NCBI GenBank assembly: GCA_037137395.1
Contig: JBAXKK010000058.1
Location: 1 to 16,840 of the forward strand
DNA: 16,840 bases
Reading direction: 5' to 3'
From: Elusimicrobiota bacterium
Lineage (GTDB): Bacteria > Elusimicrobiota > Elusimicrobia > Elusimicrobiales > UBA9959
Both the position numbers and the translations under genes were made by a program. Each line of letters begins with the position of its first letter. Positions within the stretch are counted from its first letter, which is position 1. Positions 956-15,404 of this stretch are shown here, in pieces. The notes under the pieces are model-generated. The model searched no databases, was not told where the DNA came from, and was given only the letters and a program-made list of their open reading frames with translations.

Positions 956-1002
956 AGGAGTAATCCGGGGACGGTGATGAATGGCACTAACTTAAGCCCT
1001 AA

Positions 1003-1308
1003 CCTGAAAGTTGCAGTTGCAACTTTCCGCCCGCACTGCGGGCGCCCATTCGGGAGGCATAGTCACGCATAAACCGCATAGCGGTTTTGCGCGACCCCGC
1101 CTCGGTGTTTTCGCTGCGCAGGAAAACACCTGCGGCCTTGCGGCCCGGACGCGAGGCATAATTATGCCTCGTTCTAAGCCGGGCCTCACCTTCTCGGATA
1201 CATCGCACATAGCGCTTGATCCTCGACCCGCTGCTGCGGAGAATCCTGCAGAATAATTCTGTTCCTTGATTTTATCAATGAGATATACCTTAAACTGCAG
1301 GATTCAGG
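1003..1308. mobile_element. Nested 306-bp MITE with CCTGAA ends (IS1380-like, family tentative)
   Basis: Imperfect 16-bp TIRs CCTGAAAGTTGCAGTT (1003-1018) / AACTGCAGGATTCAGG (1293-1308), 13/16 match. 4-bp direct repeat CTAA on both sides (999-1002, 1309-1312). Both ends recur elsewhere in the window. Confidence 0.75.
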
Positions 1309-1371
1309 CTAACCGGCAATTTTCCCCGGTTTTCGCTTTTTAACCGTCCGCAGTTCAGGTTTTATGTGTTA

Positions 1372-1466
1372 CGTCTTTCCGGCGAAAGCCGGAATCCAGA
1401 TATTCTTGATGCTGGATACCGGCTTTCCCCCCAGTTTTCACGGTGGGACAAGTCGCCGGTAGGACG
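1372..1466. repeat. Palindromic REP/dRS3-like repeat unit (GTC.TTCCGGCGAAAGCCGGAATCCAG ... CTGGATACCGGCTTT..CGCCGGTA.GAC)
   Basis: Internal hairpin TTCCGGC-GAAA-GCCGGAA, arm ATCCAG..CTGGAT and outer CGTC..GACG. The right half is interrupted by a ~27-bp insert (CCCCCCAGTTTTCACGGTGGGACAAGT). Matches my recollection of the common GTCATTCC(C/G)GCGAAAGC(G/C)GGAATCCA repeat class. Confidence 0.65.
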
Positions 1467-1615
1467 ACCGGCTTCCGTCGGTGAGACGAACCAATGAGAC
1501 TTTTAGACCAAAAGCGCCTTAAGTTAGTGCCATTCGGGACGGTGATGTTATCGGTAATGCTCCTCGCAATCTGTAAAAGGGGCGCTTAAATCGTTTTATG
1601 CCGGAACAGAATATG

Positions 1616-1624
1616 TGATATACT
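1616..1624 (+). promoter_or_regulatory. Putative extended -10 promoter element for ATPase 1
   Basis: TGaTATACT (TGn + -10 hexamer) about 40 nt upstream of ATG 1666; no convincing -35. Confidence 0.4.
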
Positions 1625-1665
1625 GTTCTGTAGAAAAACAATATCCCGGAGGGACTTCCTACGCT

Positions 1666-2934
1666 ATGAACGAAATATTTGACGAATGGGATGCGTATGC
1701 GCTGAAAAAGAACCTTATCCCGCGGGCTTTAGACCCGGAAAAGATCCTGCGCGAGTCGGCTCTTAAAATAGTCGCGCTTACAGGAATACGCCGCTGCGGC
1801 AAATCAAGCGCGCTTATCCTGCTCAGGCAGAAGCTTGAGCGGGAAGGTAAAAAGGCCGCATATCTGAACCTTGAGGACAGCAGGATCAAGGATTCCCCGT
1901 CCCTGCTTGATGACATCCTTAAATGGTTCGGGGATTCCGGCTGTCTTTTACTGGATGAAATCACCAACGCCGCGGACTGGGAAGGCTGGTTGTCAAGAAA
2001 TCACGAGATGCTGAAAGGCCGGCTGAACCTGGTCATAAGTTCTTCCCGCAGTTCGCTGGCCAGACCCTCAAAAGCGCTGAGGGGAAGGATCGCGGCGCAT
2101 GAGCTCGGGCCCCTTTCATTGCCTGAATTTCTGAAATTCAAGCAAGTACAGGTGGAACCGACCACTGCGGGAACAGGGAGATGGGAAAAAGCTTTTTCCG
2201 ATTATCTCATTTACGGCGGCTTCCCTGAAGTGGCGCTCACCGCGGACAGAACAGACAGAGTCAGGCTGATTGGCTCCTACTTTCGTGATATAGTCGGGTT
2301 GGATGTGGCTGAAATTTCATCCTCGGAAATATCCGCTGTTGAAACGTTTGGGAAATACATAATTGAAGCGCCGTATTTTTCGGCTTCAAAATGCCTGCGT
2401 TTTTTTCAAACGCTCGGCCATAAGATCGGTAAGTCAAAACTGCTCCAGCTTGAAAAATACGCGCAGGACAGTTATCTTTTTTTCTTCGTTCCTATCTTCT
2501 CTCATACCATCAAGGACCGGGCTCAATACCCCCGCAAGGCGTATCAAGGCGACACCGGATTCCTTTATGCCATAAGCGGCCGGACCGACATGGGCAGACT
2601 TTTTGAGAACGCGGTCTACCTGGAACTGCGCCGCAGGCTTTCCCCCATGATGGATATTCATTATTGGAAAGATCCGGATGGAGCGGAGACGGATTTTGTC
2701 GTTCGCGAAGGGCTGCGGGCCGTGAAAATTATTCAGGCATGCTATTCCATAAAAGACAGAAAAACGGAAATGCGCGAAACCAGCGGCCTTGTCGCCTGCG
2801 CCCGGAAATTAGGATTATCCGGGGGAACGATAGTTACAGTAAGTGAAGAAGGTGTAAAAAAGATTGAAGGTGTAAAAATCCGCTTCGTCCCTTTTAGAAA
2901 ATGGCTGGCAGCCCCGGGTCTCGGCAAACCATAA
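1666..2934 (+). CDS. ATP-binding protein, AAA_14 + DUF4143 family (ATPase 1)
   Basis: Walker A GIRRCGKS, YLNLED, Walker B LLLDEI, YLIYGGFPE, PRKAY..DTG, GRLFENAVYLEL, and C-terminal ETDFVV..IIQACY (PD-(D/E)XK-like). ATG 1666 (GGAGGG at 1648-1653) is preferred over the ORF-track GTG 1615, which overlaps the putative -10. Confidence 0.88.
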   Translation: MNEIFDEWDAYALKKNLIPRALDPEKILRESALKIVALTGIRRCGKSSALILLRQKLEREGKKAAYLNLEDSRIKDSPSLLDDILKWFGDSGCLLLDEITNAADWEGWLSRNHEMLKGRLNLVISSSRSSLARPSKALRGRIAAHELGPLSLPEFLKFKQVQVEPTTAGTGRWEKAFSDYLIYGGFPEVALTADRTDRVRLIGSYFRDIVGLDVAEISSSEISAVETFGKYIIEAPYFSASKCLRFFQTLGHKIGKSKLLQLEKYAQDSYLFFFVPIFSHTIKDRAQYPRKAYQGDTGFLYAISGRTDMGRLFENAVYLELRRRLSPMMDIHYWKDPDGAETDFVVREGLRAVKIIQACYSIKDRKTEMRETSGLVACARKLGLSGGTIVTVSEEGVKKIEGVKIRFVPFRKWLAAPGLGKP

Positions 2935-3201: not shown

Positions 3202-4320
3202 ATGAAAAAAACAATCAGATATCTCGCCAAACAGATATTAAAAGACCTTGATAAAAAAATGGTGTTTGTCGGCGGCCCGCGGCAAGTAGGGAAAACAACG
3301 CTGGCTAAATCGCTGCTGACGAATCCCGCGGGATATCTGAATTGGGATGCGCCGGAGCATCGGGAGAAGATCCTTTCCGGACAATTACCGGACTCCGATT
3401 TTGTTGTCTTTGATGAAATACATAAGTATAGGCATTGGCGTAATTATCTTAAGGGATTCTATGATCTACGCGGAGAAGATAAAAAAATAATAGTTACCGG
3501 CAGCGCCAGGCTGGACATATACCGATTCGGAGGGGATTCTTTGCAGGGGCGCTATCACTATTTGCGCCTTCACCCGCTCTCCGCCGCCGAACTCGGTATT
3601 TCCTCGCAAAAAGATTTTATGGAATTATTACAGTTAGGCGGCTTCCCCGAGCCTTTTTTCAGTTCCTCGGAAATTGACGCTAAACGCTGGTCAAGAGAAT
3701 ATCGTACGCGCTTAATTCGTGAGGATATATTGGGGCTTGAGCACATTCAGGACATAGGTCAGCTTGAATTATTAATACTTCGTTTGCCCGAACTTGTGGG
3801 CAGTCCCTTATCCGTTAATTCATTGCGGGAGGATTTACAGGTAGCGCATAAAACCATTGAGCGCTGGATACAGACTTTAGAGAGGATGTACGCGGTGTTT
3901 AGGCTCTCGCCGTTCGGTGGTCCTGAAATTAAAGCCGTTAAAAAAGAAAAGAAGCATTATCATTACGACTGGTCTTTGATAAAAGATTTGCCCGCGCGTT
4001 TTGAAAACATGGTCGCATCACACCTTCTTAAATGGGTGCAATTTGAGGAAGACGCCAAGGGTAGGGATATTGAACTCAGGTATTTGAGGGATATAGGCGG
4101 CCGCGAAGTTGACTTTGTTATTATGGAAGACGGCGCTCCCATAGAGTTTCTGGAATGCAAATGGAGCGACAGGGATATTTCAGGCGCGTTAAAATACGTA
4201 CATGCGCGCTATCCGAAAGTTAAAGCCACTCAGGTTTATGCGGAGGGGTCCGCGGATTATGTGTCTAAGGACGGTATAGCCGTTATGCCGGCGGTAAAAT
4301 ATCTGTCGCGCTTAATATAG
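3202..4320 (+). CDS. ATP-binding protein, AAA_14 + DUF4143 family (ATPase 2)
   Basis: Walker A GPRQVGKTT, YLNWD, Walker B VVFDEIHK, IVTGSA, SLQGRY, GGFPEP, RFENMVASHL, and C-terminal EVDFVI..FLECKW (PD-(D/E)XK-like). Confidence 0.92.
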   Translation: MKKTIRYLAKQILKDLDKKMVFVGGPRQVGKTTLAKSLLTNPAGYLNWDAPEHREKILSGQLPDSDFVVFDEIHKYRHWRNYLKGFYDLRGEDKKIIVTGSARLDIYRFGGDSLQGRYHYLRLHPLSAAELGISSQKDFMELLQLGGFPEPFFSSSEIDAKRWSREYRTRLIREDILGLEHIQDIGQLELLILRLPELVGSPLSVNSLREDLQVAHKTIERWIQTLERMYAVFRLSPFGGPEIKAVKKEKKHYHYDWSLIKDLPARFENMVASHLLKWVQFEEDAKGRDIELRYLRDIGGREVDFVIMEDGAPIEFLECKWSDRDISGALKYVHARYPKVKATQVYAEGSADYVSKDGIAVMPAVKYLSRLI

Positions 4321-4399: not shown

Positions 4400-4474
4400 G
4401 CCCAGTTGGCGCAGCGGTAGCGCGTTCCCTTGACATGGGAAAGGTCATAGGTTCGATCCCTATACTGGGCACCA
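4400..4474 (+). tRNA. tRNA-Val (anticodon GAC)
   Basis: Cloverleaf: acceptor GCCCAGT/ACTGGGC, D arm GCGC/GCGC, anticodon stem TTCCC/GGGAA with loop TT-GAC-AT (GAC 4432-4434), T arm ATAGG-TTCGATC-CCTAT, encoded ACCA end. Confidence 0.97.
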
Positions 4475-4482
4475 TTTTTAGC

Positions 4483-4563
4483 AGGGGACAGGGTAAAGGG
4501 TGCAGGGTTTAGGGGTAATGAGTGCCTTAAATCTCTACCCTATATCGCACCCTCTACCCTTTC
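4483..4563. repeat. Heptamer array family A (AGGGTNN)n with a complementary (NNACCCT)n arm
   Basis: AGGGGAC AGGGTAA AGGGTGC AGGGTTT AGGGGTA (4483-4517); arm GCACCCTCTACCCT (4547-4560) is 13/14 complementary to 4490-4503. Confidence 0.75.
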
Positions 4564-4570
4564 TTACTTT

Positions 4571-6328
4571 ATGGCAGAAGAAAAAAAAGACGGTTTTATT
4601 GAGATGATGCGGCATTCCCTGGCGCATGTGATGGCGCAGGCGGTGGTTGAGTTGTTCCCGGGCGCTAAATTGGCCATCGGCCCCTCGATAGAGAACGGCT
4701 TCTATTACGATTTTGATTCCGAACACCATTTCACCCCCGAAGACCTGCCCAAAATAGAAAAAAAGATGAAGCACATCATCGCGCAAGCCCAGAAGTTCGA
4801 GCGCATCGAACTTACCCGGGACGCGGCGCTGCGCCATTTTGAAGAGAAGGGGGAGAAGTTTAAGGTGGAGCTTATTAACGATCTGCCCGCCGCTGAGCCA
4901 ATAAGCATTTATAAAAACGGCCCCTTTGAAGATCTCTGCCGCGGTCCCCATGTGGCCCATACCGGCCTGCTCAAGGCTTACAAGCTCGTTTCCATCGCCG
5001 GCGCTTACTGGCGCGGCGACGAGAAGCGGCCCATGCTCCAGCGCATCTACGCGGTCGCCTTTGAGACCAAAGAAGAGCTGGACGCCTATATTAAACAGCA
5101 GGAAGAAGCCGCCAAGCGCGATCACCGCAAGCTCGGCAAGCAGCTTGATCTCTACAGCATAAATGAAACCGTGGGGCCCGGCCTGGTACTTTGGCACCCT
5201 AACGGCGCCCGCATCCGTAACGCCATAGAGACCTTCTGGAAGGAAGAACATTCTAAAGGCGGGTACGACCTTATTTATACGCCCCATATCGGCAGGGCCA
5301 ATCTCTGGCAGACCTCGGGCCACCTGGATTTCTACAAGGATTCCATGTACGCCCCGATGGATATAGACGGCATAGATTATTACGCTAAGCCGATGAACTG
5401 CCCGTTCCACATACAGATATACCAGAGTTCTCTTCACTCTTATCGCGATTTGCCGCTCAGATGGGCGGAGCTTGGCACGGTTTATCGTTTTGAAAAAGCC
5501 GGGGTTCTGCACGGCCTCATGCGCGTGCGCGGGTTTACCCAGGACGACGCTCATATTATCTGCACGCCGGAACAGATGGAGGCGGAGACGCTTGAAGTGT
5601 TGCGTTTCAGCCTGAGTATCTGGCGCGCTTTCGGATTTACCGATATCAAGGCTTATCTCGCCACGCGCCCCGCCGACGCCGTGGGGGAACCGGCGCGCTG
5701 GGAAGAAGCCCAGAAAAGTCTGCTGGCCGCCGTTAATAAAGAGGGGATAAAAGTTGAGATGGATGAAGGCGGCGGCGCTTTCTACGGCCCCAAAATAGAT
5801 CTTAAGGTGAAAGATTCGCTCGGCCGGGAATGGCAGACCACGACAATCCAGTTCGATTTCAATCTGCCCGAACGCTTCCAGATGGAATACACCGGCGCGG
5901 ACGGTCACAGGCACAGGCCGTATATGCTCCACCGGGCGCTGCTGGGTTCGCTTGAGCGGTTCTTCGGCATTCTGATAGAGCACTTCGCCGGCAATTTTCC
6001 GCTTTGGCTCGCCCCCGTGCAGGTTAAGGTGCTGAATATTACTTCGCTTGAAGAAGGCTACGCCAGCGAGATAGCGGCCAAACTGAAGGCTGCCGGTCTC
6101 AGGGTGGTCTCAGATTTGCGTTCCGATACCATCTCCTCCAAAGTCCGCGACGCCGCGAACGAGAAAGTCCCCTACGCTCTTATAGTCGGCAAAAAAGAAA
6201 TGGCAGAGGGCAAAGTCTCACTGCGGCTGAGGGGAAACCAGAGCGTTTACGGCCTTGACCTCGCAGAGGTGACGGCGAACCTGGTGAAAGAGGCAGCCGA
6301 AAGACGCCTGACCAATTCTTACAGCTAA
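4571..6328 (+). CDS. thrS: Threonine--tRNA ligase (short form lacking the N-terminal TGS domain)
   Basis: RHSLAHVMAQAV and DLCRGPHV editing-domain motifs, GAYWRGDE, RDHRKLG, KPMNCP, GLMRVRGFTQDDAH, GAFYGPKID, HRALLGSLERF, and the C-terminal anticodon-binding domain. Confidence 0.98.
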   Translation: MAEEKKDGFIEMMRHSLAHVMAQAVVELFPGAKLAIGPSIENGFYYDFDSEHHFTPEDLPKIEKKMKHIIAQAQKFERIELTRDAALRHFEEKGEKFKVELINDLPAAEPISIYKNGPFEDLCRGPHVAHTGLLKAYKLVSIAGAYWRGDEKRPMLQRIYAVAFETKEELDAYIKQQEEAAKRDHRKLGKQLDLYSINETVGPGLVLWHPNGARIRNAIETFWKEEHSKGGYDLIYTPHIGRANLWQTSGHLDFYKDSMYAPMDIDGIDYYAKPMNCPFHIQIYQSSLHSYRDLPLRWAELGTVYRFEKAGVLHGLMRVRGFTQDDAHIICTPEQMEAETLEVLRFSLSIWRAFGFTDIKAYLATRPADAVGEPARWEEAQKSLLAAVNKEGIKVEMDEGGGAFYGPKIDLKVKDSLGREWQTTTIQFDFNLPERFQMEYTGADGHRHRPYMLHRALLGSLERFFGILIEHFAGNFPLWLAPVQVKVLNITSLEEGYASEIAAKLKAAGLRVVSDLRSDTISSKVRDAANEKVPYALIVGKKEMAEGKVSLRLRGNQSVYGLDLAEVTANLVKEAAERRLTNSYS

Positions 6329-6344
6329 TCAGCGGGAGTGTGAC

Positions 6345-9300
6345 ATGAAGAAAATCTTCCTTGCTTTACTTCTGATCGGGCCCGTGAGCGCGCGGGCTGA
6401 GCTCACTACGGCGCAGCTTAGCGAAGACGAGGCTGCTTTTCAAACTCTCTCCGACCTTTATCGCGCCGCCGCCGACCGGTCCGCCGTAGTTGGCGCCTTT
6501 GATAAATTTATTAAAAAATATCCGAAGAGCGTCCGGGCCGCCGACGCGCAATTTATGCAGGCCGAGGCCTATATGTCCAAGGGCCTTGAACTCCTGCGTC
6601 AGGAAAAGCTTTCAAAGATGGCTTCCGACGCCCGCAGCCTCTCAGGCGACAACCAGGCGGCCATAACCGAACTTAGCAACGCCGCGGCGGCTTACCTCAA
6701 AGTGATAAAAAATTACCGCAAGTCCGGCCTGGAATCCTCGGCTCAGAATCGTATCGGCGAGGCCTATTATAATATGGGCAATTGGGCGCGCGCGATAAAA
6801 GAATTTGAGCGCGTGGAGGACAAGTACCCGGACAGCTACATCGTGCCGGAAAGTCTGCTGGGCATTGTTTATGCCAATATCGCCGCCGGCAAGTTCCCTG
6901 CCGCCCAAGCAACATTGTTCCATCTGGAGGAAAGTTACCTCCCGTACATGAAGGACCCCTCGGTTATTTTTGCCAAGGCCGTTATTGAAATGAGTAACAA
7001 AAACTACCCCGCGGCCCAGAAGATGTTTTACCGGCTGGACACTATCCAGGCGCGGATATTGCTGGGAAAATCATACCTTTACGAGGGCAAGACATATATG
7101 GCGGCGGGCGTGTTTGAGAAACTGCTGAAGGATTTCCCCGATTCCGATTATAAGGAAGAGGCGGAATTTATGACCGCCGATTCTTTTTTCTACGCCAAGG
7201 ATTTTGACGGCGCCATTGTGAAGTATGAGAATTTTCTTAAAAAATATCCCGTTTCCAAGCTTAAGAGCGCGGCCGTCTTCCGCATAGGCGCCTCGCAGTT
7301 CAGCAAGAAGGATTATTCCAGCGCGCGCTCCAATTTTCAGAGCATTATAGACCGCACCCCCCAGGACCTTTTCGCGCCGTACGCCCAGTTCTTCATCGCG
7401 GAATCGTATCTTGAGAACAAGCAGACCAGAGACGCGCTTTTCGCCTACACGAAGGTCACGGTGAATTACGCGGGTTCCTGGGTCGCCCCGGCCTCACAGT
7501 ATAAGCTGGCCTGGTGTCAGTATCTTCTGGAAGACTATCCCCAGGCCGTGCACGCCCTGGACAGCTTCCTCGCCCTGTATCCCGGCCACACGCTGGCCAA
7601 GAACGCCTGGCACCTCGCGGGCAACGCCAACCTGGAACTGAAAAAGCCGCGCGAAGCTCTGCGGGCTTTCCAGAACGCGCTGGATCTGGCGCCTTCAAGC
7701 GAGATAGCCGAACAGTCACTTTTTCTTATGCTGCGCACCGAATACGAGCGTGGAAATTATAATAATATCCTTACCTCTTACCAGTTTGTTTTTAAACACC
7801 TGCCTCCGCTGGGTTCCAAGTGGCGCGCGCTCAGCCTTCTGTATGTCGCCGACGCCTATATGCGGCTTAATCTGACGGACGACGCCCGTAATATCTACAA
7901 TACCGTCACGCGCATTTACCCTAATGATGTTTCGGCCATTTACGCCCAGGAAGGCCTGGTCTGGTGCAGTGCGCTGGCCGGAGCCGGCGATATAGCCATG
8001 AAGACCGCGGAGAAGCTGAAGACCATGAAGGCAGCCTTCCCCGATATCCCGCCGTCAGAAAGCGTGGACACCCTGGCCATAGCCGACAGCTATTTTAACC
8101 AGAAGGATTTTGAGAAAGCCTACCAGCTTTACGATAAATTTGTTACCGAAAATTCCGCCAGCACCTACGCGGCCGGCGCGCTTTACCGGGCTGGGCTGTC
8201 GCTGTACCGCCTGCGCTATTACAGCCAGGCCGTTGAACAGTGGGTGAAGCTCTCAAAGAATTATCCGTCCGCCCCCGAGACGGAGCTGGCCGATTTTCAG
8301 ACCGCCGACACTTATTTCAGGGCGCAGAAATACGCCGAAAGTATTACCGCCTATAACACCATCATCGCGAAGTATCCCAAAAGCTTCCAGCTCCCGCTCG
8401 CCTATCTGCGCGTGGCCCAGGTCTATTACAACCTGAAGCAGGACGCCCAGGCGGTGGCGCAGACCAGGACCGTGATAAATAATTTCCCGTTCTCCACCGA
8501 GGCGTATGACGCGCTGGATCTGGCGGAAGTGATTTTTGATCGCGACACTGGCATGGATTTTAAGGCCTACTTTACGGGCCTTTCCTCCGTTGAGCCTAAA
8601 ACTAAATCTTCCGGAGAGGCCCTGTTCCGCCTGGGCCGCCGGTTATTTGAGACTAAGAACTATCCCGGCGCCGTGGAATACCTTAAAAAATTCTGCGTGC
8701 AATACATCGATCATTCTTCGGTCAAGGACGCGCAATTCTATCTGGGAGAATCCTATTTCCAGACCGGGGATATGGAGGGCGCGGCCGCCGTATTCGAGCG
8801 CTTCGCGACTAATTATACCGACGCTACGGAACACCCGCTGGCGCTATTTCGGCTGGGCAACGCTTATTACAACTCCAAGAAATACGCCCCCGCCGTCAAG
8901 GCGTACGCCAAACTTACCGAACTTTACCCCGATAACGAATACATAAAGCCCGCGCTTTTCAACCTGGCGCTCTGCTACAAGAACACCGGAGCCACCGATC
9001 TGGCCGAGGAGACTTACCACAAGTATTATGAGCTGTCAGCTAAGCCTGAAGAAGCGCTGGGAGCGCTCTGGGAAATCTTTAATATTCAGAAGACAAGGGG
9101 CGATCTGGCCGGGTCAATTAAAACGCTCACCGAGATCTACGGCGAGGCGGAGGGCAAGGAAGACGCGCTTGAGGCCCTTTATCAGATGGGCGAAATAAGT
9201 TTAGAGGGCAAGCAGGCGGACGAGGCGCGCGATTACTGGGAGCGGCTGGCCCTCCAGAAACCTTTAAACAGCTCCTGGCGTCTGCAGGGCCTTGTAAAGC

Positions 9301-9647
9301 TCGGCGAGATCTACGAGGGGGAGAAGAACTACCCCGAAGCGGCCCGCGTCTATGAGGATATTTCAAAAAACGCGGCCACGCAGGAAGTGTCCAGGGCCGC
9401 CGGGGAGCGGGCCAAGGCGCTTCTCCGCATGGCATATCAGGAAAAGGCCGCGCCCGCGCCTAAGCAGGAGCGGGCCGCGCCCGATGCAAATGCGGCAGAA
9501 GCCAGAGACGCAGGCGAAGCCCGGCCCGAAGCGGAGACCCAACCTGCCCCTAAGAAGACGCTGAGAAAAGTGAGAAAGGTTAAAACGCCGGCAAAGGTCC
9601 AGGATCTGCCGGGGATGCAGGAAACAAAGACAGAGGCGGGGAGCTAG
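6345..9647 (+). CDS. Large exported tetratricopeptide-repeat protein (YbgF/BamD-like repeats)
   Basis: Signal peptide MKKIFLALLLIGPVSARA; recurring TPR signatures (A.F..AE.Y, F...YP.S) along almost the whole length; Ala/Pro/Lys/Glu-rich disordered tail; SD GGGAG. Confidence 0.9.
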   Translation: MKKIFLALLLIGPVSARAELTTAQLSEDEAAFQTLSDLYRAAADRSAVVGAFDKFIKKYPKSVRAADAQFMQAEAYMSKGLELLRQEKLSKMASDARSLSGDNQAAITELSNAAAAYLKVIKNYRKSGLESSAQNRIGEAYYNMGNWARAIKEFERVEDKYPDSYIVPESLLGIVYANIAAGKFPAAQATLFHLEESYLPYMKDPSVIFAKAVIEMSNKNYPAAQKMFYRLDTIQARILLGKSYLYEGKTYMAAGVFEKLLKDFPDSDYKEEAEFMTADSFFYAKDFDGAIVKYENFLKKYPVSKLKSAAVFRIGASQFSKKDYSSARSNFQSIIDRTPQDLFAPYAQFFIAESYLENKQTRDALFAYTKVTVNYAGSWVAPASQYKLAWCQYLLEDYPQAVHALDSFLALYPGHTLAKNAWHLAGNANLELKKPREALRAFQNALDLAPSSEIAEQSLFLMLRTEYERGNYNNILTSYQFVFKHLPPLGSKWRALSLLYVADAYMRLNLTDDARNIYNTVTRIYPNDVSAIYAQEGLVWCSALAGAGDIAMKTAEKLKTMKAAFPDIPPSESVDTLAIADSYFNQKDFEKAYQLYDKFVTENSASTYAAGALYRAGLSLYRLRYYSQAVEQWVKLSKNYPSAPETELADFQTADTYFRAQKYAESITAYNTIIAKYPKSFQLPLAYLRVAQVYYNLKQDAQAVAQTRTVINNFPFSTEAYDALDLAEVIFDRDTGMDFKAYFTGLSSVEPKTKSSGEALFRLGRRLFETKNYPGAVEYLKKFCVQYIDHSSVKDAQFYLGESYFQTGDMEGAAAVFERFATNYTDATEHPLALFRLGNAYYNSKKYAPAVKAYAKLTELYPDNEYIKPALFNLALCYKNTGATDLAEETYHKYYELSAKPEEALGALWEIFNIQKTRGDLAGSIKTLTEIYGEAEGKEDALEALYQMGEISLEGKQADEARDYWERLALQKPLNSSWRLQGLVKLGEIYEGEKNYPEAARVYEDISKNAATQEVSRAAGERAKALLRMAYQEKAAPAPKQERAAPDANAAEARDAGEARPEAETQPAPKKTLRKVRKVKTPAKVQDLPGMQETKTEAGS

Positions 9648-9690
9648 AAGCTGCTGTCATTAATTCCTAACTATTACTATTGGAGGTTTT

Positions 9691-10311
9691 GTGGAAAATA
9701 TTAACTATTTAAGTATGTTGCGTGACAGCTTTACGCTGATCATCCTGATATTCTGTTCGCTGCTGTCTTTCACCGTGGCTTTTGAGCGTTGGTGGTATTT
9801 CAGGAAGGCCCGCCACAGGAAAGTGGACGATTTTCTGGCGCATATAAGCGGACTGCTGAAAGAGGATAAGGCGGATAAAGCCGTTGATTACACCGGCAAG
9901 ATAGATTCCCCCGTAGCGAGGCTGTTCAACTACGCCTTGCGCCACCGCGAGATGCCCAGGCGCGACATAGAAGAACTGCTGGCCACGAAGCGCCAGGAGG
10001 AGAAGCTTAACCTTGAAAAGTTTCTTGGCGTGCTGGGTACCATGGGTAATATCGCGCCTTTCATCGGCCTCTTTGGCACGGTGATCGGCATTATAAAGGC
10101 TTTTCGCGACCTCGCGCTCTCCGGCGTCGGCGGTCCCACCGTGGTCGCCAGAGGTATAGCGGAAGCGTTAGTGGCTACCGCGGCCGGCCTGGCAGTGGCT
10201 ATCCCCGCAGTTATCATCTTCAACTATTTTATGCGGCGGGTAAAAGTTATCATGAGCGAACTTGAGATCTTCTCCTCGCGCCTGATGATAATAATGGGAT
10301 CGAAGCACTAG
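9691..10311 (+). CDS. exbB: MotA/TolQ/ExbB proton channel family protein
   Basis: LGTMGNIAPFIGLFGTVIGIIKAF and GIAEALVATAAGLAVAIPA motifs, three hydrophobic segments, SD GGAGG before GTG. Confidence 0.93.
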   Translation: MENINYLSMLRDSFTLIILIFCSLLSFTVAFERWWYFRKARHRKVDDFLAHISGLLKEDKADKAVDYTGKIDSPVARLFNYALRHREMPRRDIEELLATKRQEEKLNLEKFLGVLGTMGNIAPFIGLFGTVIGIIKAFRDLALSGVGGPTVVARGIAEALVATAAGLAVAIPAVIIFNYFMRRVKVIMSELEIFSSRLMIIMGSKH

Positions 10312-10323
10312 GGCGCAGCGCCC

Positions 10324-10374
10324 GCCATAAGCCGTAAATTTAGATACGGCTATTGCCATAGGCTATAGGCAGAA
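10324..10374. repeat. Heptamer family B, orientation 1 (GCCATAA GCCGTAA .. GCCATAG GCTATAG GC)
   Basis: 10350-10370 CTATTGCCATAGGCTATAGGC is complementary over 21 nt (2 G-U pairs) to 10966-10986. Confidence 0.7.
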
Positions 10375-10400
10375 ACTGGTTAGTTCTTAATATCTAATTT

Positions 10401-10805
10401 ATGGGCTTTTCTTCAAGCAATTCCGACGACGCTATAACTGACATCAATGTCACGCCCCTGGTGGATGTGTCTTTGGTGCTGGTTATAATTTTTATGGCCG
10501 TGGCTCCGTTCGCGGTGCAGTCAGGCATCAAGGTTCTGCAATCAAAATCCAGCGCCCAGGTGGGCAAGGTTTCCGCCTCGGAGAGCATCCAGGTTAAGTT
10601 GACCCTGAACGGCGTGATAAAGCTTAACGGTGCCGAGGTATCGATGCTGGATTTTCCGGCGCGCATAGCCCAGGCTATTCTGGCCAGCAAAGATAAATTC
10701 GTGATTATCAAGGCCGACGACGGGAATAAAGTCGGCGAAGTTGTTACGATGATGGACACCGCGAAGCAGTCCGGCGCCCTGAAGATGGCGTTAATGAAGA
10801 ACTAA
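10401..10805 (+). CDS. exbD: ExbD/TolR biopolymer transporter, copy 1
   Basis: DINVTPLVDVSLVLVIIFM transmembrane motif with the conserved Asp; VIIKAD..V..MD.AK.SG periplasmic motif. Confidence 0.92.
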   Translation: MGFSSSNSDDAITDINVTPLVDVSLVLVIIFMAVAPFAVQSGIKVLQSKSSAQVGKVSASESIQVKLTLNGVIKLNGAEVSMLDFPARIAQAILASKDKFVIIKADDGNKVGEVVTMMDTAKQSGALKMALMKN

Positions 10806-10819
10806 GTATGGCTTACGGT

Positions 10820-10896
10820 GTGAATCGTAAAGCGTAAATCGGGAAGCGGGAAGCGTTAATCGGCAATCGTGAATCTGGAATCGTAAAGCGTAAATA
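10820..10896. repeat. Heptamer array family C, 11 units (GTAAAGC/GTGAATC-type)
   Basis: GTGAATC GTAAAGC GTAAATC GGGAAGC GGGAAGC GTTAATC GGCAATC GTGAATC TGGAATC GTAAAGC GTAAATA, strict 7-nt period. Confidence 0.9.
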
Positions 10897-10914
10897 GTAA
10901 GAAGTCTTTATTCT

Positions 10915-10981
10915 GCTTACGGCCTAAAGCCTATAGCTTATGGCGTAGTTCGCTTACGGCCTAAAGCTTATAGCTTATGGC
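10915..10981. repeat. Heptamer family B, orientation 2: 30-bp direct repeat x2
   Basis: GCTTACGGCCTAAAGC(C/T)TATAGCTTATGGC at 10915-10944 and 10952-10981 (29/30 identical, 7-nt spacer), itself built of heptamers GCTTACG GCCTAAA GCYTATA GCTTATG. Confidence 0.9.
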
Positions 10982-11001
10982 AATAGATATCGTTAAATAT
11001 T

Positions 11002-11424
11002 ATGTCCTTTAAAGTTGAGACTAACGACGACAGTCTGGTTACAGGTATAAATGTCACGCCACTGGTGGATGTCTGCCTGGTGCTGGTCATAATATTCATG
11101 GTCACCGCCCCGCTTCTGTCGGAGCCTGTTTTTAAGGTGAATCTGCCGCAGGCTCGTACACAGGAGGGGGAAGAAAAGGAAAAGATAGTCGTATCTCTGG
11201 CTCAGGAAGCCAAGTACGCAGTAAACGAAAAGGCATTCACCGCGAAGGACGATTTTTATAAGGCGCTGGAACGCGCTATCCGGGAAAGCGGCCTTAAGCT
11301 TGTGATTATAAAGGCCGACCAAAACGCCGGTTATGGCCTGCTGACGGATGTTATGCAGCGCGCGAAAGAAGCCGGGGCGGCCAGCATTACTATAGCAACA
11401 GAGCAGACAAAAAAGAAAAAATAA
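11002..11424 (+). CDS. exbD: ExbD/TolR biopolymer transporter, copy 2
   Basis: GINVTPLVDVCLVLVIIFMVTAP, VNLPQA, VIIKADQNAGYG..DVM..AK.AG motifs. Confidence 0.93.
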   Translation: MSFKVETNDDSLVTGINVTPLVDVCLVLVIIFMVTAPLLSEPVFKVNLPQARTQEGEEKEKIVVSLAQEAKYAVNEKAFTAKDDFYKALERAIRESGLKLVIIKADQNAGYGLLTDVMQRAKEAGAASITIATEQTKKKK

Positions 11425-11440
11425 CCGGTGGTTATTTTTT
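11416..11440 (+). terminator. A/T-rich hairpin overlapping the exbD2 stop (terminator or attenuator-like)
   Basis: AAAAAATAACC-ggt-GGTTATTTTTT, perfect 11-bp stem but with very little GC. Confidence 0.35.
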
Positions 11441-11441
11441 C

Positions 11442-11545
11442 AGTGATTAGTGAATAGTGCACAGTGGATAGTGGTTAGTGAATAGTAACAGACTTGCCAC
11501 TTACCACTGATCACTTATCACTGACCACTTATAACTTATCACTTA
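11442..11545. repeat. Heptamer array family D: 7 x AGTGNNT facing 7 x YCACTKA (local hairpin)
   Basis: AGTGATT AGTGAAT AGTGCAC AGTGGAT AGTGGTT AGTGAAT AGTAACA (11442-11490), a 6-nt gap, then CCACTTA CCACTGA TCACTTA TCACTGA CCACTTA TAACTTA TCACTTA (11497-11545). Confidence 0.9.
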
Positions 11546-11564
11546 CTTATTACCCTGTTTAACT

Positions 11565-12656
11565 ATGCATTCTCATTCCGATAAAACGCTTCTTTACTCC
11601 GCGATCGGAGCTGTTTTATTTCATGGCTTGTTCTTTTTTTTCTATATTAATTTTGTTCTGCTTGCTCCTACAACCAGAAATATCGTCATAAGCAATGTTG
11701 ATCTGCTGCTGCAGGAAAAGGTGGTCCGTGTTCCCAAGGCGCCCGGCAATAAAACCCTTGATTTCTTAAAGCTGGCCCTGCCTAAGATACCTAAGATTGA
11801 GATGGTCCCGGTGGCCAAACTGCCGGAGATAAATATAAAGGTGCCGGAGGCTCGCAAAAAGAACTTTGACCTGCCGCAAAAACTTCTGGAACGCTCAGGC
11901 CGGATGCAGGCGCAGGAGCGGCTGGAGATGGACACGGCTAAACGGGCTGCGGCGGCGATGAATGCTGACCTCGGCATCAAGGCTGAACGCGCCACTGCGG
12001 CCCTGGCGCCCAAAATTGAACTTGAGGAAGTAGGCATGAAGAAAGCGCCTACTCTGCCTGAGAATCTCCAGTTTGACGAGAACGCCCGCTCCTTCACGCC
12101 GCAGACCATGCAGGAGCTTAATATCGCGGTGGAGCGGGCGAAGAAATCATCCGCTCTGCCCCAGGGGCTTTCCGAAAGGCAGGGCGAGGTAAGCGCTATT
12201 CGCGAGAGTGCCCGCATTACCCCCGCTATGCCTGAGCGTCTTGCGGAAGCTATAAGCGCGCCCGCTGAGAGCCTGACGCAGGGCCTCAGGGCCAAACCGG
12301 TAATATTAGCCGCGAGCCTGGGCGGGCCTAAAAACGCCTCCATGAAGCAGGCTGAAGAAACGAATAAAGTGGAGATAGAAGGGCCGATTTCAAAGCGGAA
12401 AGTGCTTAAATATTACGTGCCGCCTTTCCCGTCCTGGGCGCGCGAGCGCGGGTTGCTGGAAGCCTCGGTGTCTATCAAGTTTTTTGTTAACAATTCTGGC
12501 CGGGTTCTAAATAGCGCGTCGGTGGAAAAGACATCCGGCTATAGCGCTTTAGACCGAAGCGCCATTGACGCGATTAAAAAGTGGCAGTTTGAGCCCATTA
12601 GCGGCGCGGAATCCCGGCAGTGGGGAATAATCACGTTTAAATTTGTAATAGATTAA
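11565..12656 (+). CDS. tonB: TonB-family energy transducer (N-terminal anchor, long linker, TonB_C domain)
   Basis: N-terminal TM helix with His (AVLFHGL); C-terminal PPFPSWARERG..V.IKFFVNNSGRV..VEKTSG..LDRSAIDAIKKWQFEP TonB_C pattern; follows exbB-exbD-exbD. Confidence 0.88.
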   Translation: MHSHSDKTLLYSAIGAVLFHGLFFFFYINFVLLAPTTRNIVISNVDLLLQEKVVRVPKAPGNKTLDFLKLALPKIPKIEMVPVAKLPEINIKVPEARKKNFDLPQKLLERSGRMQAQERLEMDTAKRAAAAMNADLGIKAERATAALAPKIELEEVGMKKAPTLPENLQFDENARSFTPQTMQELNIAVERAKKSSALPQGLSERQGEVSAIRESARITPAMPERLAEAISAPAESLTQGLRAKPVILAASLGGPKNASMKQAEETNKVEIEGPISKRKVLKYYVPPFPSWARERGLLEASVSIKFFVNNSGRVLNSASVEKTSGYSALDRSAIDAIKKWQFEPISGAESRQWGIITFKFVID

Positions 12657-12658
12657 GT

Positions 12659-12770
12659 GCTATAGGCTATAAGTTGTAAGTTTTAAGGGAGAACGCTTTC
12701 CGCTTTACGTTTTCCGCTTTACGATTCCAGATTTACGCTTTACGATTCCCGATTCACGCCATAGGCAGAA
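12659..12770. repeat. Composite array: family B units + 9 reverse-complement family C units + family B units
   Basis: GCTATAG GCTATAA GTTGTAA GTTTTAA (12659-12686); GCTTTCC GCTTTAC GTTTTCC GCTTTAC GATTCCA GATTTAC GCTTTAC GATTCCC GATTCAC (12695-12757); GCCATAGGCAGAA (12758-12770). Confidence 0.9.
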
Positions 12771-12802
12771 AAAGTTGCAAGACGGAAAAATAGGAGCAAT
12801 TT

Positions 12803-13777
12803 ATGAAACTAAATATTCGCGGTAAAGCTTTACCCTCAGTTTTATTTTTGCCGGTCCTGCTTACGGCCTACGGCTTATGGCCAGCGGCCTTGGGCGCTCA
12901 GCCCCTGGCTGAGGGGGCGACTTCATACAACGAAGTTCCTCAGGAAATCGTGATCAAGTCGGAAAGCGAGGACAAGATCCGGACCACCAAGCCGCCGCTG
13001 AAAATTCAGACGGATGATTTAGATAGCATCAGAGAATCGCTCCAGCCGGACAAGGACCTTTTTCTGTACGGAGAGTTCGCGAGCATTTCTCAGGATTATC
13101 CGGAAAATTTGTTTTCGGCCAGGATTATCCAGCCCTGGCGCGCCGGGTTCAGCGATAAAACCGTTATAGCTTTTTATCCGCTGCGCAAATTTTCAGAGGC
13201 TTTTAATAGGAATTCATTTGACAGCAATTCCAAAGATATCCAGTGGACGCTTTCAGTTACCGACGAGGAAGGCAAGATCTTCCACAAATACGCCGGTTTA
13301 GGCCTGCCGCCGGAATCTATATTCTGGACCGGTGAGAACGATCAGCGGGAGTGGCTTAAAGCCGGACATAATTACGCCCCGGTTTATGTCTTCGTTGACG
13401 AGATGGGCGCGCTTAAGACGATTGTCGGAGATATTATCAAGTTTACCGCTATCGTATTCCAGAAGGACAGCAATCTTAATATAGGTCTGGATTCGGTGGC
13501 CGTATTCGGGCCAACTAAGTCCATGAAAACCGTTGATAAGGTTCTGGGCGAAGCTCTGCTTACCGCCACATGCGACCTTATTAAGCGGCGCTATTATAAT
13601 GTTCCGGTCAAGGTAAATGTTTACGCCCAGACCAAGGACCTGGCCGAGCAGCAGGCCGACCAGGTAAGTAATTTTCTTAGAAAAGAGCTTATGAGCGGAT
13701 CAAATCTCGTCAGCTATGAAGGTTTTGACGAAAGTTTCTCCCAGCAGCGTATAGATGTGGTTTTGATGAATAAGTAG
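12803..13777 (+). CDS. Exported hypothetical protein; FlgD-Ig-like segment plus degenerate OmpA-C-like C-terminal domain
   Basis: SD AGGAG; signal peptide ending [38 protein letters not shown] resembles the W.l.i.d..G...W.G.d..g Ig-like motif; the C-terminus ([31 protein letters not shown]) parallels OmpA-C topology. Domain calls are by eye. Confidence 0.7.
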
Positions 13778-13790
13778 TGCGGAAAAAAAT

Positions 13791-14666
13791 ATGAAAGGAA
13801 TAATATTGGCCGGCGGCTCGGGCACCCGGCTGTATCCTATTACCAACGCGGTCTGCAAACAATTGCTGCCGGTGTATGACAAGCCCATGATCTATTATCC
13901 CCTGTCCGCGCTGATGCTGGCCGGGATACGCGAGATACTTATTATTTCCACGCCTAAGGATCTGCCCCGGTTCAGGGAAATTTTCGGCGACGGCGCGGCC
14001 TGGGGGCTCAAGTTTGAATATAAAGAACAGGCCCGCCCCGCCGGTATAGCCGAAGCTTTCGTAATCGGCAGGGAATTCATCGGCGACGAGGATGTCTGCC
14101 TGATCCTGGGCGATAATATCTTCTACGGCCAAGGCCTGACCGATGCTTTAAGAAAAGCTGCCGCCGAGGTAGCCGAGCGCAGAAACGCCGTCGTGTTCGG
14201 CTATTATGTTACCGACCCCCAGAGGTACGGCGTGGTGGACTTTGACGCGCGCGGCAACGCCGTCTCAATTGAGGAAAAACCTGGAACCCCAAAATCCAAT
14301 TATGCCGTCACCGGCATCTATTTTTATCCTAACGATGTGGTTGAAATAGCCGGCGGCATGAAGCCCTCGCTGCGCGGCGAACTTGAGATAACCGACGTCA
14401 ACAGGGAATACCTTAAAAGGGGCGCCCTGAAAGTTGAGCTTCTCGGGCGCGGCTACGCCTGGCTTGATACCGGCACCTTCGAAAGCCTGCTGGAGGCGAG
14501 CGGGTTTATCGCCACCGTCGAGCGCCGGCAGGGCCTGAAGATTGCCTGCATAGAAGAAATTTCCTATTTGCTCGGCTATATCACCAAGGATGCCGTGCTG
14601 CTTATGGCCGAGTCCATGAGCAAGAATACCTATGGAGAGTATCTGAGGAAAGTAGCCCAGGAGTAG
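13791..14666 (+). CDS. rfbA: Glucose-1-phosphate thymidylyltransferase
   Basis: [81 protein letters not shown]. Confidence 0.98.
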
Positions 14667-14852
14667 ATGTAAAGCAGTCTAGAGGCAAAGCAGTTTAGAA
14701 GCAAAGCAATTTAGAGGTAAAGCAGTCTAGAGGAAAAGCAGTCTAGATGCAAAGCAATCTGGATGTAAAGCAATTTAGTGGTCTGTTTTGCGTCTAAACG
14801 GCTAAATCGCTAAATGGCCTTGCCTCTAAATTGCCAAACGGCCTTGCATCTA
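14664..14852. repeat. Family E: 7 x 16-bp tandem repeat plus a complementary octamer arm
   Basis: Consensus TAGAKGYAAAGCARTY, 7 copies at 14664-14775, starting at the rfbA stop codon. The arm at 14788-14852 has 8-nt units TTGCGTCT AAACGGCT AAATCGCT AAATGGCC TTGCCTCT AAATTGCC AAACGGCC TTGCATCT, partly complementary to the tandem repeat. Confidence 0.92.
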
Positions 14853-14861
14853 AAGGATATT

Positions 14862-15404
14862 ATGCCTTTTGAGTTTGTAAAATTAAAACCGGACGGCCTT
14901 GTGATGGTTAAACCCCGCGTTTTTACCGACGAGCGGGGTTTTTTTCTGGAGGCTTATAGATTCAGTGATTTTGAGAGGGCCGGGATAAAAGAAAACTTCG
15001 TCCAGGATAATCATTCAAGATCCGCCAGGGGCGTCCTGCGGGGCCTGCACTATCAGAAGTCCCCTGCCGCCCAGGGCAAACTCATGCGCTGCACTCTGGG
15101 CCGCATCCTTGATGTCGCCGTGGACATAAGAAAGGATTCCGCTACTTTCTGTGAATGGGTGGCAGTTGAATTGGGCGCCGATAACGCTCACATGCTCTAT
15201 ATTCCTCCCGGCTTCGCCCACGGCTTTCTGGTTTTAAGCGATATCGCGGAAATAATATACAAATGCACCAGCGAGTTTGCCCCGGAGCTTGAGGTCGGCA
15301 TACGCTGGAACGATCCGCGGCTCGGCGTAAAATGGGGCGTAACTGATCCGGTTCTGTCTCCCAAAGACAGCGTTCTCCCCTGGTTTAAGGACGCGGATAT
15401 TTAG
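14862..15404 (+). CDS. rfbC: dTDP-4-dehydrorhamnose 3,5-epimerase
   Basis: DERGFFLE, FVQDNHSRS..GVLRGLHYQ, QGKL.RC..G.ILDVAVDIR, IPPGFAHGF. Start set to ATG 14862 (SD AAGGA 14853-14857); the ORF-track start 14814 lies within the repeat arm. Confidence 0.97.
   Translation: MPFEFVKLKPDGLVMVKPRVFTDERGFFLEAYRFSDFERAGIKENFVQDNHSRSARGVLRGLHYQKSPAAQGKLMRCTLGRILDVAVDIRKDSATFCEWVAVELGADNAHMLYIPPGFAHGFLVLSDIAEIIYKCTSEFAPELEVGIRWNDPRLGVKWGVTDPVLSPKDSVLPWFKDADI

What the first reader, a model, noticed from the sequence alone, without database searches (positions are those of the whole stretch)
4483..14852. Operon-wide system of paired short-period repeat arrays: five sequence families, each with its own reverse-complement partner
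Seen: six spacers of the tRNA-thrS-TPR-exb-tonB-rfb run (4475-4570, 10312-10400, 10806-11001, 11425-11564, 12657-12802, 14667-14861) are filled with degenerate periodic arrays: A AGGGTNN, B GCYATAR/GCTTAYG, C GTAAAGC/GTGAATC, D AGTGNNT (all 7-nt) and E TAGAKGYA-AAGCARTY (8/16-nt). The families share little sequence but share one architecture: fixed period, conserved core with variable positions, and a complementary array downstream. In A, C, D and E the purine-rich arm comes first on the mRNA strand. Spacers under about 20 nt lack arrays. Inference: this is not simple slippage, since slippage does not create inverted partners. It looks like one mechanism writing orthogonal 'zipper' pairs into operon junctions, either RNA structural/processing signals or footprints of a cassette-type mobile element. 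I recall similar arrays flanking small inserted genes such as four-helix-bundle (TIGR02436-like) ORFs in other genomes, but cannot verify that and no such ORF is present here.
Basis: partly seen in the sequence, partly recalled or inferred. Interest (0 to 1): 0.85.

Follow-up and report, generated by a model that had tools for sequence, protein, structure and literature searches.

The report
Gene-less heptamer hairpin cassettes at junctions
The gaps between these genes hold mirror-image runs of 7- or 8-base repeats that look like gene-less copies of a small, poorly described mobile cassette, gained, lost and swapped at the same gaps between close relatives, rather than a purpose-built set of RNA zippers.

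Summary
The arrays are real and genome-wide: 519 period-7 arrays versus 22 in shuffled DNA. Local inverted pairs have a fixed arm order (245 to 1). A, D and E are local hairpins. B and C are not partner-specific long-range zippers: the C/B stretch at exbD1-exbD2 is one copy of a directional module with 42 detected copies, and tonB-orf324 holds a similar stretch reversed. Arm order reads the same on both strands, so it shows no transcription polarity. Partners do not covary and G-U pairs are not favoured on the mRNA. The genome's one S23p-type four-helix-bundle gene (PF05635) sits between C arms as a clean insertion. Relatives carry A-, B-, C- and D/F-armed cassettes, and 59 of 79 homologous loci across phyla have complementary arms. 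The same junctions are empty, carry another family, or hold DUF559 or Y1-transposase cassettes in relatives; a sister species shows in-place family swaps. Best reading: selfish, gene-less relatives of an IVS-like cassette; the mobilising enzyme is unidentified. Paired heptamers are in print (Xanthomonas, Geobacter); I found no paper linking them to PF05635. This scan noted that link before on other genomes.

The parts
4400..4474 (+). tRNA-Val(GAC), upstream neighbour of the first array
   Evidence: ARAGORN; Rfam RF00005
4483..4565 (.). Family A local hairpin (AGGGNNN arm 4483-4517; complementary arm about 4533-4565), ending 5 nt before the thrS start
   Evidence: (MFE z -3.1); an A-like hairpin follows the tRNA in G001, G002, G004
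4571..6328 (+). thrS, no Shine-Dalgarno match
   Evidence: TIGR00418
6345..9647 (+). TPR protein (YbgF/BamD-like repeats); flanking spacers of 16 and 43 nt are array-free
9691..10311 (+). ExbB/TolQ-like gene
10324..10372 (.). Family B first-type arm(s) (GCCATAA/GCTATAG) without a local partner; G001, G002, G008 and G016 have a complete local B hairpin at this junction
10401..10805 (+). ExbD/TolR-like gene 1
10806..10985 (.). B second-type remnant (10806-10818), then the directional C-arm/linker/B-arm module (C 10820-10896, linker about 10895-10916, B 10917-10981); G001 has only the B arm here
11002..11424 (+). ExbD/TolR-like gene 2
11442..11546 (.). Family D local hairpin (AGTGNNN arm 11442-11490; CACTTAN arm 11495-11546)
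   Evidence: (MFE z -4.8)
11565..12656 (+). TonB family gene
   Evidence: TIGR01352
12659..12766 (.). Short B units and TAAG-type units, then a C second-type arm (12695-12757) and a B unit: resembles the C/B module in reverse; absent from G001
   Evidence: (matches C49:12074-12167)
12803..13777 (+). 324-aa ORF with no NCBIfam or Pfam match; its N-terminal leader contains a translated B arm
12861..12881 (.). B second-type arm read as codons inside orf324; also in G001 and G002, degenerate in G004
13791..14666 (+). rmlA; its 13-nt upstream spacer is empty here but holds a 107-nt TAAG-family hairpin in G001
14664..14854 (.). Family E local hairpin, 8/16-nt period (first arm 14664-14775 starting at the rmlA stop; second arm 14781-14854); the junction is 4-6 nt in G002 and G004
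   Evidence: (MFE z -5.6)
14862..15404 (+). rmlC
   Evidence: TIGR01221

Best explanation
These are gene-less (non-autonomous) members of a family of small junction-resident cassettes whose full form is first arm (4-5 tandem 7/8-mers) - four-helix-bundle gene (PF05635, S23p type) - reverse-complement arm, built like an ORF-bearing 23S rRNA intervening sequence but sitting between genes. SHOWN: fixed arm order, many families, cargo-bearing forms, clean presence/absence, rapid turnover and in-place family replacement, conserved unit cores with free variable positions. INFERRED: cassettes arrive horizontally and persist just after stop codons, where most first arms supply stops in all frames and second arms are stop-poor and may even be translated; gene-less copies multiply and are remodelled by unit slippage and by copying of repeat modules into existing hairpins, which yields swaps and the C/B hybrid; the pentameric four-helix-bundle protein is the likely reader of the 4-5 cores per arm. 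The enzyme that moves the DNA is not identified. The apparent long-range B and C pairs in this operon are a by-product of high copy number.
For: 519 versus 22 period-7 arrays; 245 local pairs in one order versus 1 in the other, and for family D 5 of 41 genomes with the forward order versus 0 of 41 with the reverse. The one S23p-type gene of this genome lies between C arms; the 430-nt cassette is replaced by about 18-32 nt in G004, G006, G009 and G015. By eye 25 of 26 full-length S23p-type loci from this genome and relatives have both arms, including A, B, C and D/F types; 3 of 3 Avd-type loci have none. Across phyla 65 of 79 loci have both arms and 59 of those are complementary (shuffled partners 24.6, max 34; control 0 of 67). 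Protein and arm similarity correlate across phyla (rho 0.20, permutation p 0.002, 64 loci). The window's junctions are 3-21 nt or overlapping in several relatives and carry other families, DUF559 or Y1-transposase cassettes in others. Against sister species G001 (830 kb sampled, 308 junctions): 54 same family, 15 different or partly different, 23 in one genome only, 216 neither; hand-classified swaps 11 of 72 occupied versus clean gains 8 of 198 empty, odds ratio 4.3, p 0.005. Arms of local 7-mer pairs have 4 or 5 units in 275 of 424 cases; the solved homologue has 5 chains (2GSC).
Against: One cargo gene (C family) faces at least 11 array families here, and no remnants were found between other arms. 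G002 (98% complete) has many hairpins but no stand-alone PF05635 gene was found. At 11 distinct junctions where a relative has a cargo cassette, this genome has a different family (6) or no array (5), never the same family, so simple on-site cargo deletion is not shown. No E-family cargo cassette was seen. PF05635 has no known catalytic activity. The protein-arm correlation is weak (nearest cross-phylum neighbour beats the average in only 25 of 64) and co-transfer alone explains it. Core conservation (4.7% versus 12-14%) could reflect host function.
Confidence: 0.6

Rival explanations
1. Domesticated RNA signals: the host keeps a hairpin at these junctions for RNase III-type processing, mRNA stability or SD-independent initiation, and only the sequence turns over.
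For: Cores change less than variable positions, loops and array-free spacers between sister species (4.7% versus 14.4, 10.6 and 11.9%; 48 junctions, biased by requiring detection in both). Occupied junctions tend to stay occupied when the family is swapped. The mRNA strand folds more stably in 106 of 183 pairs (p 0.025, 1.3 kcal/mol). Genes starting within 14 nt of a second arm have an SD match in 6% of 63 versus 42% of 442.
Against: G-U 223 versus A-C 205 on the mRNA strand (p 0.41); core deviations 84 versus 64 (p 0.12); no partner covariation; similar occupancy of divergent and convergent junctions; relatives with empty junctions also show no SD there by eye; bridging mini-ORFs are depleted, 17 of 59 versus 24-31 in shuffles.
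Confidence: 0.2
2. Local mutational origin: slippage makes a heptamer run and template switching or cruciform repair writes its inverted copy.
For: Some arms are perfect runs (G001 exbD2-tonB); 12 of 48 non-zero length differences between sister species are multiples of 7.
Against: An arm is no closer to its own partner than to other arms of the family; arm order is fixed at 245 to 1; the same vocabularies and a 24-nt non-periodic linker recur at distant loci (5 copies) and the vocabularies recur across phyla around one gene family.
Confidence: 0.08
3. REP/REPIN-like elements mobilised in trans by a Y1 (RAYT-type) HUH transposase, with the four-helix-bundle gene as a mere passenger.
For: 4 Y1_Tnp genes in the genome; in G009 a Y1 transposase with palindromic flanks and a gene-less copy of those flanks occupy junctions of this same operon; the C/B hybrid forms BIME-like tandem mosaics.
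Against: 0 of 4 Y1 genes here are flanked by heptamer arms of the 11 modelled families; they have their own repeats. Arms track PF05635 in 65 of 79 loci.
Confidence: 0.07
4. Orthogonal long-range zippers: B and C arms at different junctions pair specifically to loop out exbD1 or exbD2-tonB.
For: The duplexes are possible (C:C' -59.8, B:B' -54.2 kcal/mol); among orphan arms 200-6000 nt apart, first-then-second order is 22 versus 4.
Against: No partner specificity; C arms are absent from both junctions in G001; neighbouring C/B modules are inverted in only 4 of 13 cases; same-type neighbours (43) outnumber complementary ones (26), and several long pairs enclose an inserted element; fold z for 10300-11010 is -1.7.
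Confidence: 0.05

Closest known systems
ORF-bearing 23S rRNA intervening sequences with S23p/PF05635 (PMC4990558: abstract and Introduction read)
   Same: Complementary arms around a four-helix-bundle ORF; sporadic, horizontally acquired; the paper says IVSs replace a small pre-existing stem-loop, as swaps here replace existing hairpins.
   Different: Here between protein or tRNA genes, hundreds of copies, almost all gene-less, arms built of tandem 7/8-mers in many families; RNase III excision untested.
Convergent GGGAATC heptamer pairs of Xanthomonas and GGGGA(C/T)T repeats of Nostoc (Rehm et al. 2015, PMC4692102: abstract and first third of Results read)
   Same: Intergenic heptamer arrays, preference for four units, 70-75 convergent inverted pairs per genome, lengths differing between species.
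   Different: Read there as G-quadruplexes, one family per genome; most families here have no G-tracts; no cargo link in the parts I read.
Paired tandem hepta/octanucleotide 'global regulator binding sites', classes 1-4, of Geobacter metallireducens (Aklujkar et al. 2009, PMC2700814: passages read; supplements not opened)
   Same: Several families in one genome, 3-5 tandem units, paired on opposite strands at variable distance, absent from the sister species.
   Different: Proposed as IHF/HU sites; no cassette model in the passages seen.
TAACTGA repeats of Beggiatoaceae (MacGregor 2015, PMC4679880: abstract and passages read) and cyanobacterial STRR (recalled)
   Same: Heptamer runs beside start codons, SD usually missing, stops in all three frames in one orientation only.
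   Different: Described as direct repeats of one unit with a proposed translational role; inverted partners were rare there.
REP/REPIN/BIME with RAYT transposases (recalled)
   Same: Many gene-less hairpins per one gene-bearing copy, operon junctions, mosaics, lineage-specific blooms.
   Different: Arms are tandem periodic arrays, and the associated gene is a four-helix bundle, not an HUH nuclease.
Avd of diversity-generating retroelements (10.1101/2023.10.23.563531: passages read)
   Same: Related fold (PF22296 E 6e-7, below cut-off); a pentameric, positively charged barrel with RNA stem-loop binding.
   Different: Avd-type genes seen here lack arms (3 of 3); no RT lies within the cassettes examined.

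Membership tests
PF05635 heptamer-armed cassette (undescribed family; IVS-like) | Tandem 7/8-mer arms in fixed convergent order | tested here: met
   245 versus 1
PF05635 heptamer-armed cassette (undescribed family; IVS-like) | Same arm vocabularies occur around PF05635 genes | tested here: met
   A, B, C and D/F types found; E not found
PF05635 heptamer-armed cassette (undescribed family; IVS-like) | Cargo gene or remnant between the window's arms | tested here: not met
   tblastn with 24 homologues hit only C76 and the Avd-like C52 gene
PF05635 heptamer-armed cassette (undescribed family; IVS-like) | Discrete presence/absence at orthologous junctions | tested here: met
23S rRNA intervening sequence | Located in an rRNA helix | tested here: not met
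   window copies lie between tRNA or protein genes; no 23S gene was found in this assembly, so an rRNA copy was not examined
23S rRNA intervening sequence | Excised from the transcript by RNase III without religation | not testable with these tools
   needs RNA end data
REP/REPIN-RAYT | Repeats flank a Y1 HUH transposase in the same genome | tested here: not met
   0 of 4 Y1_Tnp genes have arms of the modelled families
REP/REPIN-RAYT | 5' GTAG/GGAG tetranucleotide before a short imperfect palindrome (recalled) | not tested
   no dedicated test run
MITE / non-autonomous IS | Target-site duplication and a cognate transposase | tested here: inconclusive
   no consistent duplication seen by eye in the gains printed; flanks had diverged; no cognate transposase identified
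Heptameric long SSR / STRR | Intergenic tandem 7-mers far above chance | tested here: met
   519 versus 22
G-quadruplex repeats (Rehm et al.) | Four G3 tracts | tested here: not met
   only family A has GGG cores; B, C, D and E do not (unit profiles)
Structured cis-regulatory RNA | Covariation and G-U tolerance on the transcribed strand | tested here: not met
   no Rfam match but the tRNA

The most novel reading that the evidence does not exclude
PF05635 pentamers are sequence-specific readers of 4-5 tandem 7/8-mer cores and define a distinct class of bacterial mobile element with no nuclease of its own. It homes into pre-existing hairpins (rRNA helices, other copies of itself), overwrites them family by family using host recombination or processing enzymes or a reverse transcriptase in trans (this genome has an Avd-RT pair), and accounts for the long-unexplained excess of heptamer repeats in bacterial genomes.
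Probability: 0.3. Interest if true: 0.85.

Novelty: new variant of a known kind. Interest (0 to 1): 0.6.

Why it matters
About a quarter of co-oriented gene junctions in this genome (354 of 1484) carry these arms, and they turn over between sister species, so they are a large and mostly unannotated force on intergenic DNA and even on protein leaders. Tying them to PF05635 gives the unexplained bacterial heptamer repeats and the function-less S23p/IVS protein one testable hypothesis: a five-subunit ring binding four to five cores. This genome supplies a matched gene and arm pair and quantitative rules (fixed order, no covariation, in-place replacement) that any mechanism must explain.

Tried and rejected
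Transcription polarity of arm order: rejected as untestable, since an inverted pair reads the same on both strands. G-U bias: one search printed A-C 321 through a double count; the per-family totals give 205 and one search gives p 0.41. Partner covariation: none. Alternating inversion of C/B modules: 4 of 13. Bridging mini-ORFs, a lead from earlier scan notes: depleted. Cargo remnants in this genome: none. Y1 transposase, DUF559 and PDDEXK_3 (GxxExxY-type, recalled) genes as cargo in this genome: the 4 Y1 and 1 DUF559 matches have no arms; PDDEXK_3 gave only a below-cut-off hit. Promoter and terminator scans are at chance level (10 versus 9.3; 21 versus 14.8 +/- 4.0). Rfam: only the tRNA. Sequencing runs: no RNA holder listed; laid DNA contigs gave no informative length polymorphism in the arrays. 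23S rRNA not found in the assembly. The Atlas search returned only PF05635 clusters. Literature: 9 full-text searches found no paper linking heptamer pairs to PF05635; subscription journals are largely outside the library, and the supplements of PMC2700814 and PMC4692102, which list the repeat loci, were not opened. Gene calls in my scripts are simple longest-ORF calls, so start sites and junction classes carry some error.
Full report
OBSERVATION. The window holds tRNA-Val, thrS, a TPR gene, exbB, two exbD, tonB, an unassigned 324-aa ORF and rmlACD. A, D and E fold locally (MFE z -3.1, -4.8, -5.6); the three B/C spacers do not. A B-type arm also lies inside the leader of orf324. One spacer above 20 nt (43 nt) has no array. 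Independent contigs span the 12657-12802 array unchanged.

GENOME-WIDE ANATOMY. The assembly (2.70 Mb, 174 contigs) has 519 period-7 and 112 period-8 arrays against 22 and 18 in shuffled DNA. Eleven family profiles give 834 merged strong arms (about 9 false calls expected at that threshold). Local same-family pairs within 200 nt are in one order 245 times and in the other once; a model-free pattern for family D finds the forward order in 5 of 41 genomes and the reverse in 0 of 41. Because an inverted pair reads the same on both strands, this is a property of the element and not of transcription. Arms occur at 354 of 1484 co-oriented, 37 of 210 divergent and 42 of 212 convergent junctions. In co-oriented pairs the first arm starts within 25 nt of the stop codon in 150 of 185. 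First arms often carry stops in all three frames (F 81 of 84, D 76 of 123, C 58 of 115, B 97 of 210) while second arms rarely do (C 1, B 12), but families K and N keep the order without stops. Arms of local 7-mer pairs have 4 or 5 units in 275 of 424 cases. Many loops contain an AAGGA/CTCCT motif shared across families (24-29 of 245 loops per 6-mer).

ARE THEY ZIPPERS? Real partners pair no better than swapped ones (0.751 versus 0.762 +/- 0.005, 149 pairs). G-U and A-C mismatches on the mRNA strand are 223 and 205 (p 0.41; one search corrects a double count); core deviations are 84 versus 64 (p 0.12); the mRNA strand folds slightly better in 106 of 183 (p 0.025). The exbD1-exbD2 stretch is one of 42 detected copies of a directional C-arm/linker/B-arm module, with an identical 24-nt linker at five loci; tonB-orf324 holds a similar stretch reversed, recognised by blastn though not in that list. 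The module lies either way on the mRNA (19 versus 12) and neighbours are inverted in only 4 of 13 cases. The window's C:C' duplex is beaten by 9 of 15 unrelated C arms, and sister species G001 lacks both C arms. Orphan arms do show some long-range order (22 versus 4), partly because other elements sit inside hairpins (for example an MNT-HEPN pair). Long-range pairing in this operon is possible but unspecific.

CARGO. The genome has one S23p-type PF05635 gene, bracketed by C arms (homologue of 2GSC, E 1e-30). G001 shares the cassette; G004, G006, G009 and G015 have about 18-32 nt instead of 430. By eye, 25 of 26 full-length S23p-type loci from this genome and ten relatives have both arms, including A, B, C and D/F types; 3 Avd-type loci have none, and 3 fragments were set aside. 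Of 79 scorable loci among the 80 returned from one genome per species, 65 have both arms and 59 of these are complementary (shuffled 24.6; control 0 of 67); the first-arm form is purine-rich in 60 of 64. Protein and arm similarity correlate weakly across phyla (rho 0.20, p 0.002), which co-transfer or recognition would both give. Against a simple picture: no remnants lie between other arms here, G002 has many hairpins and no stand-alone gene found, and at 11 distinct junctions with cargo in a relative this genome has another family (6) or none (5) (11 of 23 loci had no syntenic junction).

TURNOVER. In 12 relatives the operon's junctions are empty (exbD1-exbD2 3-4 nt in G002, G004, G005; rmlA-rmlC 4-6 nt in G002, G004; exbD2-tonB overlapping in G009), or hold other repeat families, DUF559 cassettes (G008) or a Y1 transposase with palindromic flanks (G009). 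With 830 kb of G001 (about a third of it; 4-fold divergence 20%), 308 orthologous junctions split into 216 neither, 54 same family, 15 different or partly different and 23 one-sided. After dropping 31 long junctions I classified by hand about 11 swaps among 72 occupied and 8 clean gains among 198 empty junctions (odds ratio 4.3, p 0.005); the classification is approximate, and empty junctions may simply be non-permissive. In swaps both arms usually change together while flanks, and sometimes the outermost old unit, remain. Cores change at 4.7% versus 14.4% for variable positions, 10.6% for loops and 11.9% for array-free spacers (48 junctions; biased by requiring detection in both genomes).

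TRANSLATION. Genes starting within 14 nt of a second arm have an SD match in 6% of 63 against 42% of 442 controls; thrS, both exbD and tonB lack one. Their orthologues at empty junctions also show none by eye, so these were probably coupled genes before insertion (inference). Bridging mini-ORFs are depleted (17 of 59 versus 24-31).

MECHANISM. Most likely (0.6) these are selfish, gene-less relatives of the PF05635 cassette. Shown: architecture, cargo link, gain, loss, replacement and core conservation. Inferred: horizontal arrival, survival just behind stop codons, spread and remodelling by slippage and by copying into existing hairpins, and recognition of 4-5 cores by the pentamer. Unknown: the catalyst; an Avd-like gene next to a reverse transcriptase is present, but nothing links it to the arrays. 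Rivals: domesticated RNA signal 0.2, local mutational origin 0.08, RAYT-driven REP-like 0.07, long-range zippers 0.05.

KNOWN SYSTEMS. It works like an ORF-bearing IVS in build (PMC4990558, abstract and Introduction) and like REP/REPIN in population structure (recalled), but fails membership of both. Convergent heptamer pairs (PMC4692102, abstract and part of Results), multi-class paired hepta/octamer sites (PMC2700814, passages) and SD-less heptamer runs with one-way stops (PMC4679880, abstract and passages) are in print under other interpretations. Nine searches found no paper tying them to PF05635. Earlier notes of this scan report that link on other genomes; I tested it independently here and count those notes as leads only.

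VERDICT. Observation confirmed; interpretation partly supported. A new variant of a known kind, interest 0.6; the boldest reading (a nuclease-free, hairpin-homing element class read by a pentamer) has probability about 0.3.

Noticed in passing
G000:C52:12491-13982 (L002, L229): Avd-like four-helix gene directly upstream of a reverse transcriptase: a probable diversity-generating retroelement, without heptamer arms.
   Followed up: partly
window 999-1312 and 2952-2995: A non-periodic dispersed element of about 310 nt (10 matches of 150 nt or more in the genome) and a 44-nt perfect palindrome sharing its end; a related sequence sits inside a D hairpin at G000:C69:6748-7026.
   Followed up: partly
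window 1376-1480: Another dispersed palindromic repeat with 18 blastn matches in the genome.
   Followed up: no
window 1615-2934 and 3202-4320: Two tandem AAA_14 + DUF4143 ATPase genes upstream of tRNA-Val; a homologue lies after orf324 in G009.
   Followed up: no
window 12803-12890; L022 orf324 5' end: orf324's leader contains a translated B arm in G000, G001 and G002, while in G008 a palindromic element of the DUF559-flank type occupies the leader; relatives without either have shorter leaders.
   Followed up: partly
L022:7664-8126 and 9755-10261 (G008); L023:4392-5206 (G009): The same operon junctions hold DUF559 genes between CCCCCTTT/AAAGGGGG palindromes and a Y1 transposase between REP-like repeats: three unrelated hairpin-flanked cassette types use the same sites.
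   Followed up: partly
G000:C4:41650-42704 (L225); C49:8971-10809 (L226); C27:26877-27379 (L227): Long-range arm pairs enclose an MNT-HEPN pair, an AbiEii-type pair and the RNase P RNA gene.
   Followed up: partly
L038, L039, L059, L060: Weaker PF05635 matches inside open frames of about 1170-1200 codons in G006, G002, G008 and G019: a possible fused domain.
   Followed up: no
G010: A relative in another genus has a bloom of D-family hairpins (73 overlapping pattern matches) with short A/T loops.
   Followed up: no
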